DNA of 64,000 nucleotides, taken from assembly GCF_963921235.1 (NCBI RefSeq), contig NC_086097.1, positions 25,670,001 to 25,734,000 of the forward strand, written 5' to 3'. Under the pieces are notes generated by a model that ran no database searches, had not been told where the DNA came from, and saw only the letters and a program-made list of their open reading frames with translations. The translations under genes were made by a program, and so were the position numbers. Positions 18,768 to 61,659 of this stretch are shown here, in pieces (positions within the stretch are counted from its first letter, which is position 1; every line of letters starts with the position of its first letter). This DNA comes from Mobula hypostoma (lineage: Eukaryota).

Positions 18768-19142
18768 TCTCTCACTCTCCTTTTTCTCCCTCTGTCCCTC
18801 TGAATATACCTCTTGCCCATCCTCTGGGTCACCCCCCCCCGTCTTTCTTCCCGGACCTCCTGTCCCATGATCCTCTCGTATCCCCTTCTGCCTATCACCT
18901 GTCCAGCTCTCGGCCCTATCCCTCCCCCTCCTGTCTTCTCCTATCATTTTGCATCTCCCTCTCCCCCTCCAGCTTTCAAATCCCTTACTCACTCTTCCTT
19001 CAGTTAGTCCTGACGAAGGGTCTCAGCCTGAAACGTCGACTGCGCCTCTTCCTATAGATGCTGCTTGGCCTGCTGCGTTCACCAGCAACTTTGATGTGTG
19101 TTGCTTGAATTTCCAGCATCTGCAGAATTCCTGTTGTTTGTG
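18768..19142 (+). mobile_element. Penelope-derived short insertion with hammerhead motif
   Basis: 12-bp TSD tatacaacatcc at 18756-18767 and 19143-19154, inside the CR1 RT. Confidence 0.85.
19006..19041 (+). ncRNA. Minimal type I hammerhead ribozyme motif
   Basis: agtc-CTGACGA-a-gggtctcagcct-GAAA-cg-TC-gact; helix I agtc/gact; palindromic ACGT helix III. Confidence 0.75.
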
Positions 19143-33270: not shown

Positions 33271-34510
33271 ATTTACAAAGAGGAGAAGTGATCTTATTGA
33301 AACAACAGCTTCTGCCAAAAGACAGTCCTATCTGGTAGAGAACCTAGAGCTAGGGTGGCAGTTTTAAAAGGGACTGCTCGGTTAAAATAAAGATGAGACA
33401 GTACTTATTTTTTCCCAGGGCCATGAATCTTTGGAATATCCTGTTGTAGTGAAAAGTAAATCCAATTCAAAGTAATACAATGATGAAACAGAATGACACA
33501 TCCAAAATGCCAGAGGAATGCAGCAAGTTGGGCAGCATCTATGGAAAGGAATAAACAGTCAAATGTTTCAGGTCAAAACCTTTATCCAAATTGGAAAGGA
33601 AGGGGGAAAGAGGCCAGTATAAGGTAGTGGAGGCGAGGGAGGGGGAAGGAGTACAAGATGGCAGGTGATACATGAAGTCAGGTGAGGGGGAAAGTGATAA
33701 GTGGAAAAGGTAAAAGGCTAAAGGAGAAGGAATCTATTAGGAGATGAAAATGACCATGGGAGAAAGGGAAGGAGGAAGCGCACCAGATGGTGGTGATAGA
33801 CAAGTAAGGAGAAGAGGTAAGAGGGGAGCCACAGTGGGGAATGGAAGAAGAGGGAAGGGAAAGCGGGGGGAAACTGATTTGATGAAACAGATGTTTTTTT
33901 TTTGTTTTCACTTTGCTCTGTCATAAGTAAGTAGAAGAGTAAAGCCAAAGTTATGGTTATATACAATGTCAGAACCAGGTCGAACGGCATAATGACCAAC
34001 TCCTGCTCCTATTTATGTGGGTTCTAGGACCAAATAGTTTTAAGATACATAACGGAATTGTATAACAGGCTTGAATGTCTTTCTTTTTCTATGTTTCTTG
34101 TGCATTCTCCAGGCAAGCAATCAGATCTCTCAACGTTTGATTGAGAGATAAAGCTCTTAACAAACCATTTCAGCAGGCAAAGTTTTCAGTCATCTCATGT
34201 CCTCACTGGGGGAATCAGAGGTGGAGGAAGTCAACAATGTTTAATTCCTCGCTGTCATCATTACAAGCTACATTAATTTTGACCAACATGAAAAAGCTCC
34301 ATTTAGATTCTAATTAGTATCTACAACATTTAATGAAGAACAGAAATTCTTGGTTTATTTTCCCCTAGTATGGACACTTAAAAATTGAACTGCAAACAAC
34401 ATTCAACCTGACAGCACCCTTGAACTCAAACAGCCTGAGATTCACAGCAACACACATAAAATGCTGGGGGGAGGGGAGAGATCAGTGAATCAAACAGGAA
34501 TAAACAATCA

Positions 34511-34730
34511 ACACACATCAAAGTTGCTGGTGAACGCAGCAGGCCAGACAGCATCTATAGGAAGAGGCGCAGTCGACGTTTCAGGCCGAGACCCTTCGTC
34601 CTGACGAAGGGTCTCGGCCTGAAACGTCGACTGCGCCTCTTCCTATAGATGCTGTCTGGCCTGCTGCGTTCACCAGCAACTTTGATGTGTGTTGCTTGAA
34701 TTTCCAGCATCTGCAGAATTCCTGTTGTTT
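34511..34730 (+). mobile_element. Fold-back Penelope-derived mini element with hammerhead motif (core 34601-34628)
   Basis: Perfect ~90-bp inverted arms around a 2-nt spacer (34601-34602); TSD aggaataaacaatca(aca) at 34496 and 34731. Confidence 0.88.
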
Positions 34731-34939
34731 AGGAATAAACAATCAACATTTTGGACCGAGTTCCTTCATTCACTATGCACAAGTGTGAAGGGAATGGCTG
34801 TTTACAGTGGCAAATGGGCTGCTAATCAAATGGGCTAACTTGTTCTGCATGGAACTGAGCTCAACAGTTATTGGATCTGAATTTCATCTAGTCAAATGCA
34901 AGTATTCTGTCATGCTTCTAGACTTCTGATAGAAAGACT

Positions 34940-43357: not shown

Positions 43358-44343
43358 AACACACACAAAATGCCAGAGGAACTCAGCAGGCCAGGCAGCA
43401 TCTATGGGAAAAAGAGTACAGTCAACATTTTGGGCCGAGATTCTTCAGCAGGGCTGGAGGAAAAAAGATGAGGAGTCAGAGTAAAAGGGTGGGGGAGGGG
43501 AGGGAGAAACACAAGGTGATAGGTGAAACCTGGGCGGGGGGGAGGAAATGGAGTGGTGAAGTAAAGAGTTGGGAAGTTGATTAGTGAAAGAGATACAGGG
43601 CTGGAGAAGGGGAAAATCTAACAGGAGAGGACAGAAAGCCACGGAAGACAGAAAAAGAGGGAAGAGCACAAGAGGGAAGCAATCGGCAGGCAAGGAGAGG
43701 AGGTGAGAGGGGGAAATGGGAATGGAGAATAGAAAAAAAGAGGAGGGCATTACTGGAAACTCGAGAAGTCGATGTTCAAGTCATCAGGTTGGAAGCTGCC
43801 CAGACGGAGCACAAGGAGTTGCTTCTCCAAACTGAGTGTGGCCTCATTGCAACAGTAGAGGAGGCCATGGACTGACATGTCAGAATGGGAATGGGAAGTG
43901 GAATTAAAATGGGTGGCTACTGGGTGTTCCCTCTTTTTCTTGCGGACAGAACGCAGGTGCTCGGCGAAGCAGTCCTACACCTACACCTCTACCCTCACTA
44001 CCATTCAGGGCCCCAAACAGTCCTTCCAGGTGAGGCAACACTTCACCTGTAAGTCTGTTGGAGTCATCTATTGTATCCGGTGCTCCTGCTGTGGCCTCTT
44101 GTACATCAGTGGGACCCGACATAGATTGGGAAACCGCTTCGCTGAGCACCTATGCTCCATCCACTAGAAAAAGAAGGATCTCCCAGTGTCCACCCATATT
44201 AATTCCATTTCCCAGTCCCACTCCTCTACTGTCACAAAGAGGCCATACTCAGGTTGGAGGACGAACAACTTGTATTCCGTCTGGGTAGCCTCCAACCTGA
44301 TGGCATGAACATTGACTTCTCGAACTTCCATGAATGTCTCTTC

Positions 44344-47300
44344 TTTTCTCTACCCTCAGGGTCCTCCGAGAGGGAGGGAGAATGATGGACCCAATCGGAC
44401 GGATGCAGTTAATTACAGGGAACGACTACGACCAAGAGCTAGGATAAGAGGCTCTGAGTGTCCAGTGTCTTGGTGTGGGAGAGCGTTTTCCAGCATTAAA
44501 GGTGTACGAATCCACCAAGCAGAGTTTAGGTGCTATTCCATTCCAGTGGATGAAGATGAGATTACTTCACCAAGCACAAATGATGTGGTCTTTTCAACCA
44601 CTGATTCACAAGCCACAGCGATTCGCTCTGGAGATAGGCATCATACTCCAGGTCAGACGAGAGATAACCCAGGTCAGGTTTCAGACCACAGTACCCAGGT
44701 AGATCCTTCGCATGATGGCAGTGGTGAGGAGGTAGAGAAGAAGAGGAAGGTCAAGTGGCCAGCAATGGCAGATGAGAAGGTTTGGCATGTGTTTGATGAG
44801 GATATCAGTATGATGTTGGAGAACACTCTCAGGGGAACATCAAAGAGAAAGTTGGAAGTGATAGGCGATATGATTTACAATGTTGGAAAGTACAGTTTTG
44901 ATTTGGTTGAGTTGAAGAAAGCAAAGCCTACACAGCAACCAAGCAGGCGCCAGAAGGAGATTAGTAGGTTGAGGAGAGAGCTTAGATCATTGAAACAGAG
45001 GTGGAAGGTAGCAAGTGAGGGTGACAAGCCAGGGCTTACTGATCTCCGAGAGCATTTTCGAATAAAGTTAGCATCACTCCGTTGTGCAAAGTCACAACGT
45101 AAAAAGAGAAGGAGAGAGAAGGCAAGAAATTCATTCTTTGAGAACCCTCACGAGTTCACAAAGAAACTGTTTGAACAAAGTAAGAGCGGGCAGCTTAACA
45201 TCTCTCAACAAGAACTTGAGGATCACCTGGCAAGCACTTACTCTAACGAACAGCGGAAAGCTCCTTTGATTGATATTTCAGGGCTTGTGAAGCCTACCAA
45301 ACCAGGAGTAAAGTTCGATCTGTCAGAACCCAAATTGGCAGAAGTCGAACGGTTCATCAGAAAGGCAAGGTCAGGGTCAGTGCCAGGACCTAATGGAGTG
45401 CCGTATAAGGAGTTCAAGAAATGTGAAGAGCTGAGGAAATACTTGTGGAGGTTGTTAAAGGTGGTGTGGAGACAAGGTGTTGTTCCTTTGTCACGGAGTG
45501 AGGCTGAAGGAGTATACATCCCGAAGGAAGAGAATTCTTCTACATTGAATCAGTTCCAACCAATTTCACTCCTGAATGTAGAGGGGAAGATTATGTTTGG
45601 CATTCTGGCAGAAAGAATATCTTCATTTGTGATAGAGAATGGATTAGTAGATACATCTGTGCAGAAGGCAGGAATACCAGGCTTCCCAGGCTGCCTTGAA
45701 CATTCTAGTATGATATGGCATACCATCCAGGAGTCAAAAAGGTTCAGAAGAAATCTGGCTGTAGTTTGGCTTGATCTGGCAAATGCGTATGGTTCTGTTC
45801 CCCATGTCCAGATTGAGTTTGCGATGGAATTCCTATGGATTCCTGCTAAGGTGAGGAACTTTCCGTCATGCAGTACTACAACAATTTCCGGATGAGGTTT
45901 TCCACTCAGCAGTTTACAACTAGGTGGTAGAGCTTGGATGTTGGAATCCCAATGGGATGTGCAATTTCACCCATCCTTTTTGTGTTAGCCATGGAGGTCA
46001 TTGGGAGGGCTGCAGAATCAGTGGGACCAGGTGTCGCACTTGATGGCAGAGGGGAGTTACCATCAATAAGAGCGTTCATGGACGATCTCACCCTTTTGGG
46101 TCCCAGCACGGAGGCAGTGGAAAATGAACTATCTAGACTCGAGGAGCTAATGGATTGGGGAAGAATGAAGTTCAAGACCAAGAAGTCAAGGAGCCTTGTT
46201 CTTAGGAGAGGAAAGCTGGCTGACTTTCATTTCACCCTTTGTGGAGAAGGGATTCCATCCATTCAGGACCAACCAGTTAAGAGCCTCAGGCGATGGTACA
46301 CAGAGAAGCTAAGAGACACCAAGAGGGTTCAAGAGACAGGAGAACAGATCAGCAGAGGTCTGATGTCTGTTGACAAGTGTGACTTACCTGGCAAGTTGAA
46401 GTTGTGGTGCTTGCAGTACGGACTGATGCCACAGATAACGTGGCCACTAACTGTCTGTGAAGTGGCAATGTCTCATGTTGAGGCAATGGAACGGAAGATC
46501 AACAAGTATGTGAAGAAGTGGCTTGGAGTACCGAGCAGCCTCACCAATGTTGCAATCCACAGTAGCCAGACAAAGCTTACCATCCCAGTGCAATCCCTTG
46601 TTGAAGAGGTCAAGGTTGCCAAGGTAAGATCATTCTTGATGCTTCGAGACTCAAAAGACCCTGTCATCAAGAACACCCACCCGGATGTGAGATCAGGAAG
46701 GAAGGGGTCAGCCCGTGTAGCAGTTGATGAGGCAGAGTCTAGATTGAAGCACAAGGAGATGGTTGGGGCTATCCAGCTAGGTCACCAGGGACTTGGGTGG
46801 ACAACCCACAAGTGGTGGTCATCTTCTACAGGTAAGGAGCACCGCAAGCTTGTAACACAAGAAGTACGAGAGGTAGAAGAGGAGAAGGGGTTAGCTAAAA
46901 CAGCTGGCCTGGCCAAACAAGGGGCTTGGACCCGGTGGGAAAGTGTTGAACAACGACATCTATCTTGGAATGTTCTGCAGCAGATGGAACCGCTCCACAT
47001 TTCTTTTCTATGCAGAGCAGCGTACAATCTGCTCCCAACACCTGCCAACCTCAGCACTTGGTGTGAAGATAAGACAGACAGGTGTGCTGCTTGTGGCGAG
47101 AAGGGAACACTTCAACATACTTTGAGTGCATGCAGAGTCAATCTTTCCAGCGTCATGTACACTTGGAGACATAACAATGTTCTCAAAGTCATGACAGAAG
47201 CAGTTGAGCAGAGAGTACTGCAGCACAACTTATCTCATGCCCATGCTGCACAGAACATCGTACATCATTTGTGAAAGAAGGCTCCAAGTCAAGGGTGTAC

Positions 47301-48001: not shown

Positions 48002-48250
48002 CTCTTCCCCATTCCCATTTCCCTCTCTCACCTCATCTCCTTGACTGCCCATCACCTCCTTCTAGTGTTCCTACCCCCTTTTCTCTCTTCCATGGACTTC
48101 TGTCTTCTCCTATAAGATTCCCCCTTTTCCAGCCCTGTATCTCTTTCACCAATCAACTTCCCAGCTAGAGGGCTACAGGTAAGCCCAGTAATTTCTAAGG
48201 TAGGGACATGTTCGGCACAACTTTGTGGGCCAAAGGGCCTGTATTGTGCT

Positions 48251-48481
48251 AACAAGAGGAATTCTGCAGATGCTGGAAATTCAAGCAACACACATCAAAG
48301 TTGCTGGTGAACGCAGCAGGCCAGGCAGCATCTCTAGGAAGAGGTACAGTTGACGTTTCAGGCCGAGACCCTTCGTCAGGGTGCAGTCCTGACGAAGGGT
48401 CTCGGCCTGAAACGTCGACTGTACCTCTTCCTAGAGATGTTGCCTGGCTTGCTGCGTTCACCAGCAACTTTGATGTGTGTT
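48251..48481. mobile_element. Fold-back Penelope-derived mini element with head-to-head hammerhead cores
   Basis: ~95-bp inverted arms with a 7-nt spacer; TSD gcctgtattgtgct at 48237-48250 and 48482-48495. Confidence 0.88.
48383..48422 (+). ncRNA. Minimal type I hammerhead ribozyme motif
   Basis: gcagtc-CTGACGA-a-gggtctcggcct-GAAA-cg-TC-gactgt; 6-bp helix I. Confidence 0.78.
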
Positions 48482-50143
48482 GCCTGTATTGTGCTGTAAG
48501 TTTTCTATGTTTCTATGTTTCCCAGCTCTTTACTTCATCTCTATCCCTCTCATTTTCACCTTTTTTGTGTTTTTCTCTCTCTCCTCCCCCCACCTTTTAA
48601 ATTTACTCATCTTTTTTTTCCTCCAGTCCTGCCGAAGGGTCTAGGTCAACTGTTTATTCATTTCCATAGATGCTGCCTGGCTTGCTGAGTTTCTCCAGCA
48701 TTTTGTGTGTGTTACTTGGATTTCCAGCATCTTCAGACTTTCTCTTGTTTACAGCAGATGCACAAGGTTGAATGGGATTCGGGATCAGCCATAATGGAAG
48801 TACAGAGCAGACTCGATGGGCTGAATAGCCTAATTCTGCTCCTATGTCTTATGGCTCTAATTATGAGTCAGGTAGATTTTTCTCTCATTGAGTCATACAG
48901 CATAAAAACAGGCCCTTCGGTCTATCACATCTACATCATCATTAAGCACAAATCTGCACTAAAACCATTTGATAAGTACAACTAATAAAGGCCAACACCC
49001 TTCAACATCAATTAGTTTGTATTTTGAAAGGTTTCCACTTACAAGGTCCAATCCCCAGATACCTGACTTGGCATGGCCATTCACTACCTACCTTTATTGT
49101 GTGGTGCTGATCCAGTGTGGGCATCGAATAAGGGCTCATTATGCTCCTCCAGCCTAAACAGCCCATGCTGATCAGTTACACCGATGTGACCAATTACCTA
49201 TTAATCCATACATCTTTGGAATGTGGGAGGAAAACAGAGCTTGCAGAATAAAGCCACATGGTCACAGGGAAAATGTACTCCTTACAAACAGCAGCAGAAA
49301 TGAACCCAGTCATGGGCACTATAATAGCGTTACATTATGCTACTGGTTTACTACTTATCAGCAGCAAATAAAACAAAGCATACAACTAAATGCTTTATTA
49401 ATAACACTTTTTCCTAGTCAAATTTATGGTAAACGATCACCGCAAAGAATGGAGAGGCGGTCGGAGGCAAGGAAGAGTTGAGGGTCAAAGCGAGCGATGA
49501 CAAGGCTGTCGAAGATCAAAGCAAGCAGGTGCGAGGCAAAATCAAGGTGAGGTCAAGGCAGATTCAAGGCAAACGGAGGTGAAGCAAACTCAGGGCAAGC
49601 AGAGACAAGGAAGAGTTGAGGCCTATTCATCTAAACCAAGGGTGAGGTTTGATTGAACTAAACGCCAGACTGATTTGCAAAGTATTGGAGCAACAATGCC
49701 CAGATCCTAGAGCCAGGAATGACCCGTTGGTTGGACAATTTAAACGCAACGCCAGATTGAAAAGGGAAGATGTTGGGACCAGAGGCGAGGGTCAGGCCAG
49801 TTCTGCTCGCTATTCCACGACGTTTACTCAGCTCAGCGGTGAACTGAGGCTGAGGCCTGCCCTGGGCTTTGTGTCTGTGGACTCACTTTCATTCTGAATG
49901 CTTTTTGTTTACTTTCATTGCTTGCGCAATTTGTTTTTTGCATCTTTTTCCTCTCTACATTGGGTGTTTGATAGTCTTCTTATTTTTATGGGTTCTTTTG
50001 TGGCTGCCTGTAAGGAGATGAATCTCAAGGTTGTATAATACATACATACATACATACTTCAGTAATAAATGTACTTTGTACTGCTCAATAGTTAACAATC
50101 TAACTAAATTAAATATTCAAAATAAAATCTCTTGGACCTTGTA

Positions 50144-58925: not shown

Positions 58926-61659
58926 GGATGCAGAAATATTCACAAGGAGTTTACAAGGACTAGAATACTTAAGTTATAAAGAGAAACTAGTAAAATGGGG
59001 CTATTCCCAAGCAAGAGAAAATCTGCAGATGCTGGAAATCCGAACAATACCCGAAACTTCAACTGTACTTTTTTCCTATATGCTGCCTGTCCTGCCGAGT
59101 TCCTCCAGCATTTTTGTGAGTTCTGCTAAGATGGGGCTATTTTCCTTAAGATGAAGGAGACTGGGGGATGACCCAATAGAGGTCTATAAAACCCATGAGG
59201 GACAGTGTGAAGGTTACAGTGTTTCTCCCTTGTGGTAGTGGAGTCCAAAACTTCAGGGCATAGCTTTAAGATGAGAGGGGAAGATTTTCCCCTCCCACAC
59301 ACACTCACAAAAGGTGGTGAATATATGAAATGAGCTGCCAGAGGAAGTGGTAGAGACAGATAGAATTATAACATTTAAAAGACATTCAGACAGACAGGTA
59401 CATCAATAGGAAAGGTTAGAGGGCCAAGCTCAAGCAAATAGGACACGCTCAGGTAAACAACGTTGTTTGTTTTTGTGCTTTATAACCCTCTGACACTACT
59501 AGAATGAATCGACACTCAGTAGGGGAGCTCAAAAAAGGATATCAGTGGAATATTAGTGGAAGTGACAACAAACATAATTAGGAAGCCAAAGAGGAATTAA
59601 ATTAAAATATCAAAAGAACGAAGTATTCCACTGGCACCCACATGTCAAAAAGAAATAAAGATGAAACAGGCATAATAAATAATGAGCAAATTAAATGATT
59701 TAAATGGGAATTACAAAAGATTCTGTGGTCCTTTCTAAACAGAGTGCAACTGACAACAGTTTAAACTAAGGACTGAACTTTTTTCTGGTTCAGAAAGAAA
59801 ATATTATACAACTCAAAACAAGTCAAATTTAAGGATAACAGAAATTAGAAAAACAAAAAGGTGCCAGACAACTGGAGTTTAGCAAATGTACCTACTATTT
59901 TAAGTCGCCAATTAATCAAGGGAACACAAGAGCTCTTTTAGGTACGATAAACACTGGAGTCCATGCAAGAATATGAACAAAACATCCAAGGAGGTTCAAT
60001 ATAATGAAGTCAACAGAGCTCAGAAAGGAAAAGCATTTTCAGGCAACATTGAATATTTGTAATAGGAACATAAAGTATAGACAAATACAACACATATGAC
60101 AAGTGGCCTTTTGTAAGAGACAAACTTTAAAAAAGTATATTAGGGTTGACTTGCCAACATCAAATGACAGTATAGTCAGATTAACAGACTGTTCAGCCCA
60201 TTGAGTCCATGCCAACAATCAACCGCCATTTACAATAATCCTACATTCATCTTGTTTTTTCATTCTCCCCACATTCTCATCAATGGCCCCAATTCCTACC
60301 ACTCACCTACATAGCAGCACCAATTCACAGTGGACAACTAACTTTACAACTCAGCAGTTACAGGGAGAATGTGCCTGCAACTGAATGTGCCACATTGGTG
60401 CTCAGAGTTTAACTTGGGTATCTCGCATTACAAGACAAGGGCTCTATTAGGTGTGGCAATAAACTTTCTACAAATTTACAACCGAAGATTGAGAAGCAGG
60501 TTCTGATTTAGCATGGATAAACAATAAATTATGTGAATTGTGGATAGAACATCAGTGTCAGCTCTGATATCCCAAAATATCATCTGGCCAGTTAGAGTCC
60601 AGAACACTGCCACTGTGAGTGATAAATGGCAGAGGGAAAAACTGACACTAAACAAACTAAATTATAAACGAGAAACTCAAAGAAAAAGTCATGATGGGGA
60701 AAAAATTCTAACTAATGTACCATCAATGAAGTTGCTGACAGTGGAGTATTGATAAGAAGTCTATCGCTAGGAAAAGCATTGATAAATGCAGAATCTGGTT
60801 AAGGTTTTGTTTGGAAATATGAGAATGAGCAGGGGTCAGGCAAATAACTACTTAATATTCAATATTATGGCAGATTCTTCCACTTATCATCAACCATTTT
60901 CACCATTTGATCACCATTAACCCATTCCCTTAATGTCCAAATACCTATTGAACCCAGTTTTGAATAGTCTCAATGACTGACCAAACACAACTTAAGTACA
61001 ACAAATTTACAACCCCCCATGTAATTTCTCCATATTTCATTCCCAGTTTGCCAATCCCTCATCCTGTGACTGTACCCTAAACTCTAGATCCTACAACTAA
61101 AATTTGGAGGGTAGTACAACTACTATCCTCCAAATCTCTCTTTGAATCTGTGTACCTCAACGAATTTACCTTGGGTGTTCTTAAAATTCAGTGAATATGG
61201 GTCAACGCAAACACGAGGAAATCTGCAGATGCTGAAAATTCAAGCAACACAGGGTCTCAGCCTGAAACGTCGACTGTGCTTCTTCCTATGGATGCTGCCT
61301 GGCCTGCTGTGTTCCACCAGCATTTTGAATATGGGTCAATACTACTTGATCTCTTAAAGACAAGTGCTACATTTCAATGCTGCACCAAAATATCTCTTGA
61401 GGGCAGCACAGTTGCATAGCAGTTATCGTAATGCTTTACACCACCAGCAATCACAATCAAGGTTCAATTCCCACCGCTGTCTGTATGGGTTTCTACCAGG
61501 TCCTCTGATTTCGCCTACATTCCAGATGTTGTACAGGTTATCGTTAGTAAAGTTCTGGGAATGCTACACTGATACTAGAAGCATAGCTGCCCCCAGCACA
61601 TCCTCAGTCTGTGTCGGTCACTGGTGCAAGTAGCACATTTCACTGTGTGTTTCAATGTA

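What the first reader, a model, noticed from the sequence alone, without database searches (positions are those of the whole stretch)
48237..48495. Second independent palindromic ribozyme insertion, with two head-to-head hammerhead cores
Seen: 231-bp insertion, 13-14 bp TSD, ~95-bp arms, 7-nt spacer. Each strand carries CTGACGA...GAAAcgTC, but only the plus copy keeps helix I (gcagtc/gactgt). The short arm stops at the same position (...gatgtgtgttg) as in the 34.5-kb copy, although the site, orientation and diagnostic bases differ (tctctagg/gtac versus tctatagg/gcgc, each mirrored in both arms). Inference: a reproducible priming or template-switch mechanism generates these structures.
Basis: partly seen in the sequence, partly recalled or inferred. 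Interest (0 to 1): 0.72.

Follow-up and report, generated by a model that had tools for sequence, protein, structure and literature searches.

The report
Twin-primed Penelope retroelement hairpin stub
This mirror-image insert is one of more than 8,000 similar stubs of a Penelope-like jumping gene in this genome; the shape is already described for this class, but the near-invariant pairing of one long end with one short end likely records both cut DNA strands starting to copy the element's RNA at two set sites.

Summary
Observation confirmed: 231-bp insert, 14-bp TSD, 94-bp arms (91/94 matched), a hammerhead core on each strand. It is not a ribozyme element of its own: both arms are 5'-truncated ends of the pLTR of an endonuclease-bearing Penelope-like element (PLE) with intact 1,043-codon RT/GIY-YIG frames in this genome. 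At least 8,271 such palindromes exist. In one size class 4,020 have the ~36-nt 'tail' on one arm and only 22 on both. The short arm ends in a zone (+91 to +96 in 49 of 72), not at one base. Inverted pLTR, one-sided tail and TSD are published PLE features (PMC3846280, PMC8557442); two RT start sites and extension of both strands were shown in vitro (PMC11167929). Symmetric centres (35:39:5), some arms from different subfamilies and non-overlapping arms favour twin target-priming plus end-joining over the published self-priming idea. The ribozymes are likely passengers. This scan has reported the same thing many times, in this genome and others. A known kind of insertion carrying a testable mechanistic rule.

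The parts
48237..48250 (+). Left target-site duplication (14 bp); the target is itself the end of a multi-copy repeat
   Evidence: uninterrupted paralogues continue past a single copy of the 14-mer in hundreds of contigs of all four runs laid (loose ends at 48250 and 48482)
48251..48286 (-). PLE 'tail', +94 to +129 of the pLTR, present on this arm only
   Evidence: in intact elements this stretch runs on into the start of the long frame
48287..48380 (-). Long (tailed) arm, palindromic part, pLTR positions 0 to +93; hammerhead core 48379-48352 without helix I and with a G>A change at +29
   Evidence: 123 of 130 identical to the pLTR of intact element L152, up to 126 of 130 to L161
48381..48384 (+). 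4-nt junction insert GTGC, likely a short templated copy of arm sequence (+31 to +37 antisense, one mismatch)
   Evidence: inserts of 5-20 nt in 18 other palindromes match the element better than shuffles (mean 6.8 vs 4.9, max 5.6); for this 4-mer alone not significant
48385..48481 (+). Short (tail-less) arm, pLTR positions -3 to +93 (+95 with the 2-nt overlap into the TSD); minimal type-I hammerhead core 48389-48416, putative cut 48416/48417
   Evidence: predicted to fold into a non-hammerhead hairpin as a monomer
48482..48495 (+). Right target-site duplication (14 bp)
34496..34748 (.). Independent palindrome of another subfamily in opposite orientation; centre joined through a 3-nt overlap; TSD 13-18 bp
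61193..61340 (.). Same-family head-to-head insertion whose arms do not overlap at all (tailed arm +90 to +130, short arm +8 to +78), 14-bp TSD

Best explanation
The insert is two 5'-truncated copies of the end of a Penelope-like retrotransposon, set head to head inside one 14-bp target duplication, likely made in one event when both 3' ends of a staggered cut primed reverse transcription of the element's RNA, one at the tail end and one about 36 nt further in. Shown: parentage, intact RT/GIY-YIG partners, TSD of 13-15 bp, exactly one tail per palindrome, de novo junctions. Inferred: the GIY-YIG endonuclease cuts both strands ~14 nt apart; two RTs (probably a dimer) start at about +130 and about +93; both cDNAs usually stop near the front of the hammerhead (-10 to +10); host end-joining with microhomology or short templated inserts links the two cDNA ends; the template is usually one RNA or one source element. 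The hammerhead cores ride along and are predicted not to cleave at this locus.
For: Parent: 16 of 20 fetched candidate loci hold an open frame of 1,043 codons or more between or beside pLTRs 94-99% like the window's copy; frame has DKG, YIDD, CX4CxxC and GIY-YIG motifs, Pfam RVT_1 E 5e-5, below its curated cut-off. Pairing rule: 3,819 palindromes (inner motif on both arms), 4,020 with tail on one arm, 22 with tail on both, same size class; in 79 sampled without asking for a tail, 77 align to +123..+139 on one arm, the other two show tail letters just outside the alignment, and no short arm passes +102. Both ends are true start sites: single-armed copies end at the tail in 7 and at +88..+102 in 13 of 20 (10 of 49 groups at locus edges left out). 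Against fold-back: the arm reaching further 5' at the centre is the tailed one in 35, the short one in 39, equal in 5; the same microhomology joint occurs both ways round (4:2 and 2:3); arms that do not or hardly overlap occur (14 of 50 in the shortest class; window 61.2 kb); L191 has arms of two subfamilies differing at 5 of 5 diagnostic sites. Same source mostly: 70 of 79 concordant at two non-CpG sites vs 21.6 by permutation, max 38. Centre joints: 32 microhomology, 8 blunt, 39 inserts. In vitro a PLE cuts and extends both strands from two start sites flanking the tail and is predicted to dimerise (PMC11167929, main text read).
Against: No pile-up of tailed-arm 5' ends at +80..+96 as a collision on one RNA would give (estimated 16 and 9 loci per nt vs 21-26 at +55..+79; n = 50 + 30), so one RNA versus two is open. 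In vitro no difference in start site between strands was seen (PMC11167929), unlike the strict pairing here. Central deletions after insertion could erase a fold-back asymmetry, and ectopic conversion could make discordant arms; neither was excluded. Microhomology at the target junctions (mean 1.2 and 1.4 nt vs 0.5) was tested only against a one-sided control and is inconclusive. Samples come from the first listed matches on contig C1, binned by size, not from the whole genome. No biochemistry.
Confidence: 0.7

Rival explanations
1. Fold-back self-priming: one target-primed cDNA (or an antisense RNA) snaps back and copies itself up to about +93; the centre is later trimmed.
For: Proposed for PLE inverted junctions in PMC3846280 (passage read). 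Arms share diagnostic bases in 70 of 79 and 17 shared minor variants vs 4 expected. Recurrent joints such as -2/+3 look like snap-back on a 3-nt match.
Against: Centre asymmetry is even (35:39:5) and the same joints occur both ways round; non-overlapping arms; arms of two subfamilies (L191, L210); +93 is also the end of single-armed copies, so it needs no second explanation as a stop site.
Confidence: 0.17
2. A non-autonomous palindromic mini-element (MITE- or retrozyme-like) that transposes as a fixed unit using its two hammerheads.
For: Stereotyped size and thousands of copies; a few centre joints recur (6 and 5 of 79).
Against: 68 of 79 centres are distinct; recurrent joints sit in different subfamilies and orientations; sizes form a continuum up to kb-long arms; both arms keep the helix-I strand in only 21 of 79; no pile-up of 5' ends at the cut site +29; no Rfam match at gathering score.
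Confidence: 0.04
3. Two independent insertions side by side, a segmental duplication, or an assembly artefact.
For: Very high family density (85,845 exact motif hits); the 22 two-tailed cases look like this: none of 9 analysed has a TSD.
Against: One TSD encloses both arms in 72 of 79; flanks of the two window loci are unrelated; arms carry 3 differences, so not a read fold-back artefact; strict one-tail rule.
Confidence: 0.03

Closest known systems
Canonical EN+ PLE insertion: inverted 5'-truncated pLTR, one-sided 30-40-nt tail, TSD (Adineta Pen2a_Av, PMC3846280, passages; Craig et al. Fig. 2 legend, PMC8557442, passages)
   Same: Head-to-head inverted pLTR, tail on one end only, one TSD around the whole unit.
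   Different: Here the unit is cut down to ~230 bp, occurs in >8,000 copies, TSD is 13-15 bp (8-10 bp in Adineta), and the one-tail rule can be counted (22 exceptions vs 4,020); the tail is called 'optional' or 'often' in those papers.
Poseidon from Anolis carolinensis (PAc) in vitro (PMC11167929, main text read, supplements not read)
   Same: Two RT start sites bounding the tail, cutting and extension of both target strands, minimal hammerhead not needed for insertion, predicted dimer.
   Different: Other clade (this element has the CX4CxxC linker of Neptune/Nematis); in vitro the start sites were not strand-specific and the inverted product was not explained.
Minimal type-I hammerheads of metazoan PLEs (PMC4209133, results and discussion read)
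   Same: Core with palindromic ACGT in place of helix III, 4-5-bp helix I, in the pLTR; that paper notes dual motifs 100-700 bp apart on opposite strands in Schistosoma.
   Different: Pair next to the core in helix II is G-U or A-U here rather than the conserved G-C; opposite-strand cores cannot form the same-sense dimer.
L1 twin priming
   Same: Both target ends prime cDNA; head-to-head inversion inside one TSD.
   Different: In L1 the second primer anneals at variable internal sites and the arms do not overlap; here the second start is fixed ~36 nt from the first, so the arms overlap and form a palindrome.
Non-LTR retrozymes (bioRxiv 10.64898/2026.07.22.740005, abstract, introduction and part of methods read)
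   Same: PLE-pLTR-derived, hammerhead-bearing, non-coding.
   Different: Retrozymes are head-to-tail tandem units with same-sense ribozymes; this is head-to-head and rebuilt at each insertion.

Membership tests
EN+ Penelope-like element insertion | Parent with single ORF, RT plus C-terminal GIY-YIG, between pLTRs | tested here: met
   (RT by Pfam weakly; GIY-YIG by motif in the translation, no Pfam hit)
EN+ Penelope-like element insertion | Inverted 5'-truncated pLTR at the 5' end | tested here: met
EN+ Penelope-like element insertion | 30-40-nt tail on one end | tested here: met
   36-nt tail at 48251-48286
EN+ Penelope-like element insertion | TSD around the whole unit | tested here: met
   14 bp here; 72 of 79 sampled, 59 of 72 at 13-15 bp
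EN+ Penelope-like element insertion | Partial-tandem organisation of full copies | tested here: met
   period ~3.5 kb in L146, L147, L163, L164
Neptune/Nematis clade | CX2-5CxxC linker before GIY-YIG (PMC8557442 passage) | tested here: met
   CKRNKCYTC in the frame
Neptune/Nematis clade | RT phylogeny placing it in Neptune | not tested
   no reference PLE set on hand
Active hammerhead ribozyme | Conserved core CUGANGA...GAAA..UH | tested here: met
   both strands
Active hammerhead ribozyme | Helix I closes on both strands | tested here: not met
   plus 10 bp, minus none next to the core
Active hammerhead ribozyme | Hammerhead fold favoured / helix III or same-sense dimer partner | tested here: not met
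   monomer folds into a long hairpin that pairs the core; partner core is antisense; no Rfam match
Active hammerhead ribozyme | Self-cleavage | not testable with these tools
   needs an assay
Non-LTR retrozyme / self-propagating MITE-like unit | Fixed unit copied as a whole; same-sense tandem ribozymes | tested here: not met
   68 of 79 distinct centres, size continuum, head-to-head

The most novel reading that the evidence does not exclude
PLEs of this family integrate by obligately asymmetric twin priming: an RT-endonuclease dimer makes a ~14-nt staggered cut and assigns one 3' end to the tail start and the other to the inner start of the element's RNA, so the class's inverted pLTR and one-sided tail are one and the same footprint, and the host's end-joining, not a second-strand step of the element, finishes the insertion.
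Probability: 0.55. Interest if true: 0.55.

Novelty: new member of a known kind. Interest (0 to 1): 0.33.

Why it matters
How PLEs make their inverted ends and tail is stated to be undefined in PMC8557442 (passages read), and the in vitro work leaves the late steps open (PMC11167929). A family with >8,000 short, countable products gives a sharp rule (one tailed, one tail-less arm in about 99%) and discriminating data against self-priming, with intact 1,043-codon elements to test it. The locus itself is an ordinary transposon stub; the ribozyme angle adds little.

Tried and rejected
Rfam scan of the window at gathering score: 0 matches. PDB sequence search with the intact frame: 0 matches at E 0.01. 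First BLAST-ranked 30 loci suggested a fixed centre, but were biased by using the palindrome as query; left out of all tallies. Idea that the centre marks the hammerhead cut (+29): no pile-up there. Idea that the tailed RT collides with the inner primer on one RNA: no pile-up at +80..+96 (small n). Target-junction microhomology: control one-sided, inconclusive. Empty orthologous site: contigs of four runs were swamped by paralogues; one contig in X9 joins 48242 to 48487 (side 28 nt), but the target is itself a repeat, so this does not show polymorphism at this locus. L227 dropped as a duplicate of L226; L078, L095, L097 dropped as overlaps; L136 gave no row. Literature searches for a twin-priming account of PLE inversions found none by title or abstract start; subscription papers and supplements were not seen, so absence from print is not established.

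Full report
Observation. The window reads TSD (48237-48250) - 231-bp insert - TSD (48482-48495), the two 14-mers identical. The insert is an antisense arm (48251-48380), four extra bases, and a sense arm (48385-48481). Numbering from C3 of the hammerhead as +1, the left arm covers 0 to +129 and the right arm -3 to +93 (+95 with a 2-nt overlap into the TSD). The 94 bp common to both differ at 3 positions. The target is itself the end of a multi-copy repeat, and uninterrupted paralogues carry the 14-mer once (loose ends), which supports the TSD. The 34.5-kb copy has unrelated flanks, so the two are separate events.

Parentage. The arm sequence is extremely common: a 26-nt motif occurs 85,845 times in the 3.48-Gb genome, its reversed control never. 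One BLAST hit (L009) ran on beyond the tail into an open frame; searching with it gave 151 scored matches, many in long frames. Of 20 such places fetched, 16 hold a stop-to-stop frame of 1,043 codons or more next to pLTRs 94-99% like the window's 19-kb copy, several in partial tandems of ~3.5 kb. The frame has the DKG and YIDD motifs, a CX4CxxC linker and a GIY-YIG motif; Pfam gives RVT_1 at E 5e-5, under its curated cut-off. The linker is the mark of Neptune/Nematis PLEs in PMC8557442 (passages); no tree was made. The long arm of the finding is 123 of 130 identical to L152 and 126 of 130 to L161; none of the intact copies fetched carries exactly this locus's diagnostic bases.

Genome-wide layout. 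Exact two-motif patterns count 3,463, 3,819 and 989 palindromes with inner gaps of 81-110, 111-140 and 141-170 nt, and 801 and 1,468 smaller ones; all are lower bounds, and this locus itself is missed because of one mismatch. In the finding's size class, tail-on-one-arm gives 4,020 and tail-on-both 22; none of 9 two-tailed loci analysed has a TSD. Among 79 palindromes sampled without requiring a tail (first listed matches on contig C1: 50, 15 and 14 from the three bins), 77 align to +123..+139 on one arm, the other two show tail letters just outside the alignment, and no short arm passes +102; 72 have a TSD, 59 of them 13-15 bp; TSD-anchored short ends run +79 to +97, with 49 of 72 at +91 to +96. 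In a sample unbiased for geometry (window, 37 random 10-kb stretches, 27 single-motif loci) 49 groups were found: 10 at locus edges were set aside, 19 are head-to-head and 20 single-armed; the single-armed ones end at the tail in 7 and at +88..+102 in 13. Both ends are thus used on their own, and independent choice would give many tail/tail and short/short pairs; they are almost absent.

Mechanism. A staggered cut leaves two 3' ends; antisense cDNA grown from each gives exactly TSD-antisense arm-sense arm-TSD (inference from geometry). PMC11167929 (main text read) showed a PLE cutting and extending both strands from two start sites that bound the tail, with a predicted dimer and no need for hammerhead cleavage. 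PMC3846280 (passages) describes the same layout and reads it as self-priming. Fold-back predicts that the tailed arm always reaches further 5' at the centre, that the arms overlap and that they are identical at birth. Found: 35 tailed-longer, 39 short-longer, 5 equal; the two commonest joints occur both ways round; 14 of 50 in the smallest class hardly or do not overlap, as at window 61.2 kb; L191 and L210 have arms of different subfamilies. Arms agree at two non-CpG sites in 70 of 79 against 21.6 by permutation, so one RNA or one source is the rule. Centres show microhomology in 32, blunt joints in 8 and inserts in 39, and inserts of 5-20 nt copy nearby element sequence better than shuffles, as expected of end-joining (established knowledge, recalled). 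Against: no pile-up where the tailed RT would meet the inner primer; junction microhomology inconclusive; later central deletion or conversion not excluded.

Where the arms stop. Counts fall about fourfold once both arms extend upstream of the hammerhead (989 vs 3,819), and there is no pile-up at the cut site +29. The sequence just upstream is a pyrimidine tract ending in CAG/TTAG, which looks like a splice acceptor or an initiator (inference); PMC4209133 notes that the D. virilis intron ends at the 5' strand of helix I. An RNA 5' end there is plausible but untested, and many copies run far past it.

Ribozymes. The cores are minimal type-I hammerheads of the kind described for PLEs, thought to need a same-sense dimer and weak in vitro; that paper already mentions pairs on opposite strands. 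The plus core has a 10-bp helix I only because the junction insert extends the parent's 5 bp; the minus core has none. As a monomer the plus core is predicted to fold into a hairpin that pairs the core; a read-through transcript would pair the two arms. Both arms keep the helix-I strand in 21 of 79 palindromes. The ribozymes are likely passengers.

Novelty. The architecture is published (PMC3846280, PMC8557442 Fig. 2 legend). I found no paper giving the strict pairing rule or twin priming for PLEs in four searches (listings only, open-access library, supplements not seen). This scan has reached the same reading many times, in this genome and in at least 11 genomes; I looked only after forming and testing it, and those notes are not independent support. 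They call the host a cartilaginous fish; I did not test that. Verdict: new member of a known kind, interest 0.33.

Noticed in passing
window 61193-61340 and 59009-59116: Head-to-head insertions whose arms do not overlap (tail-only arm plus inner arm); the 61.2-kb one has a 14-bp TSD, the 59-kb one is an older subfamily.
   Followed up: partly
window 48574-48750: Older relative of the same pLTR (about 75% identity) right beside the finding; its upstream reads CTCCAG/TCC with a long pyrimidine tract, a splice-acceptor-like motif shared with the young family.
   Followed up: no
window 18768-19139: Single-armed young copy (-241 to +130, 98% identical to an intact element) with a 12-bp TSD inside a CR1-like RT frame on the minus strand.
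   Followed up: partly
L140 (G000:C5:223910929-223911154): Two-tailed palindrome whose flanks are also mirror images, i.e. a larger inverted duplication centred on the element.
   Followed up: no
L162 (G000:C58:11273786-11293217): Array of at least five element copies with a 489-codon frame at about 4.6-5.1 kb spacing, longer than the 3.5-kb unit.
   Followed up: no
L246, L248, L256, L257, L265, L300, L301 and mirror cases L258, L262, L298: A recurrent centre joint (+33/+45, 8-nt overlap) in 10 of 50 small palindromes, both ways round: a microhomology hotspot.
   Followed up: partly
window 44309-47274 (+): Two long frames (528 and 447 codons) that read like the RT and zinc-knuckle/REL end of a non-LTR element; label from recall, not searched.
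   Followed up: no
pLTR position +20, several loci (L168, L170, L184, L209, L235): A T>C variant in both arms restores the G-C pair next to the hammerhead core; the youngest intact elements carry T.
   Followed up: no
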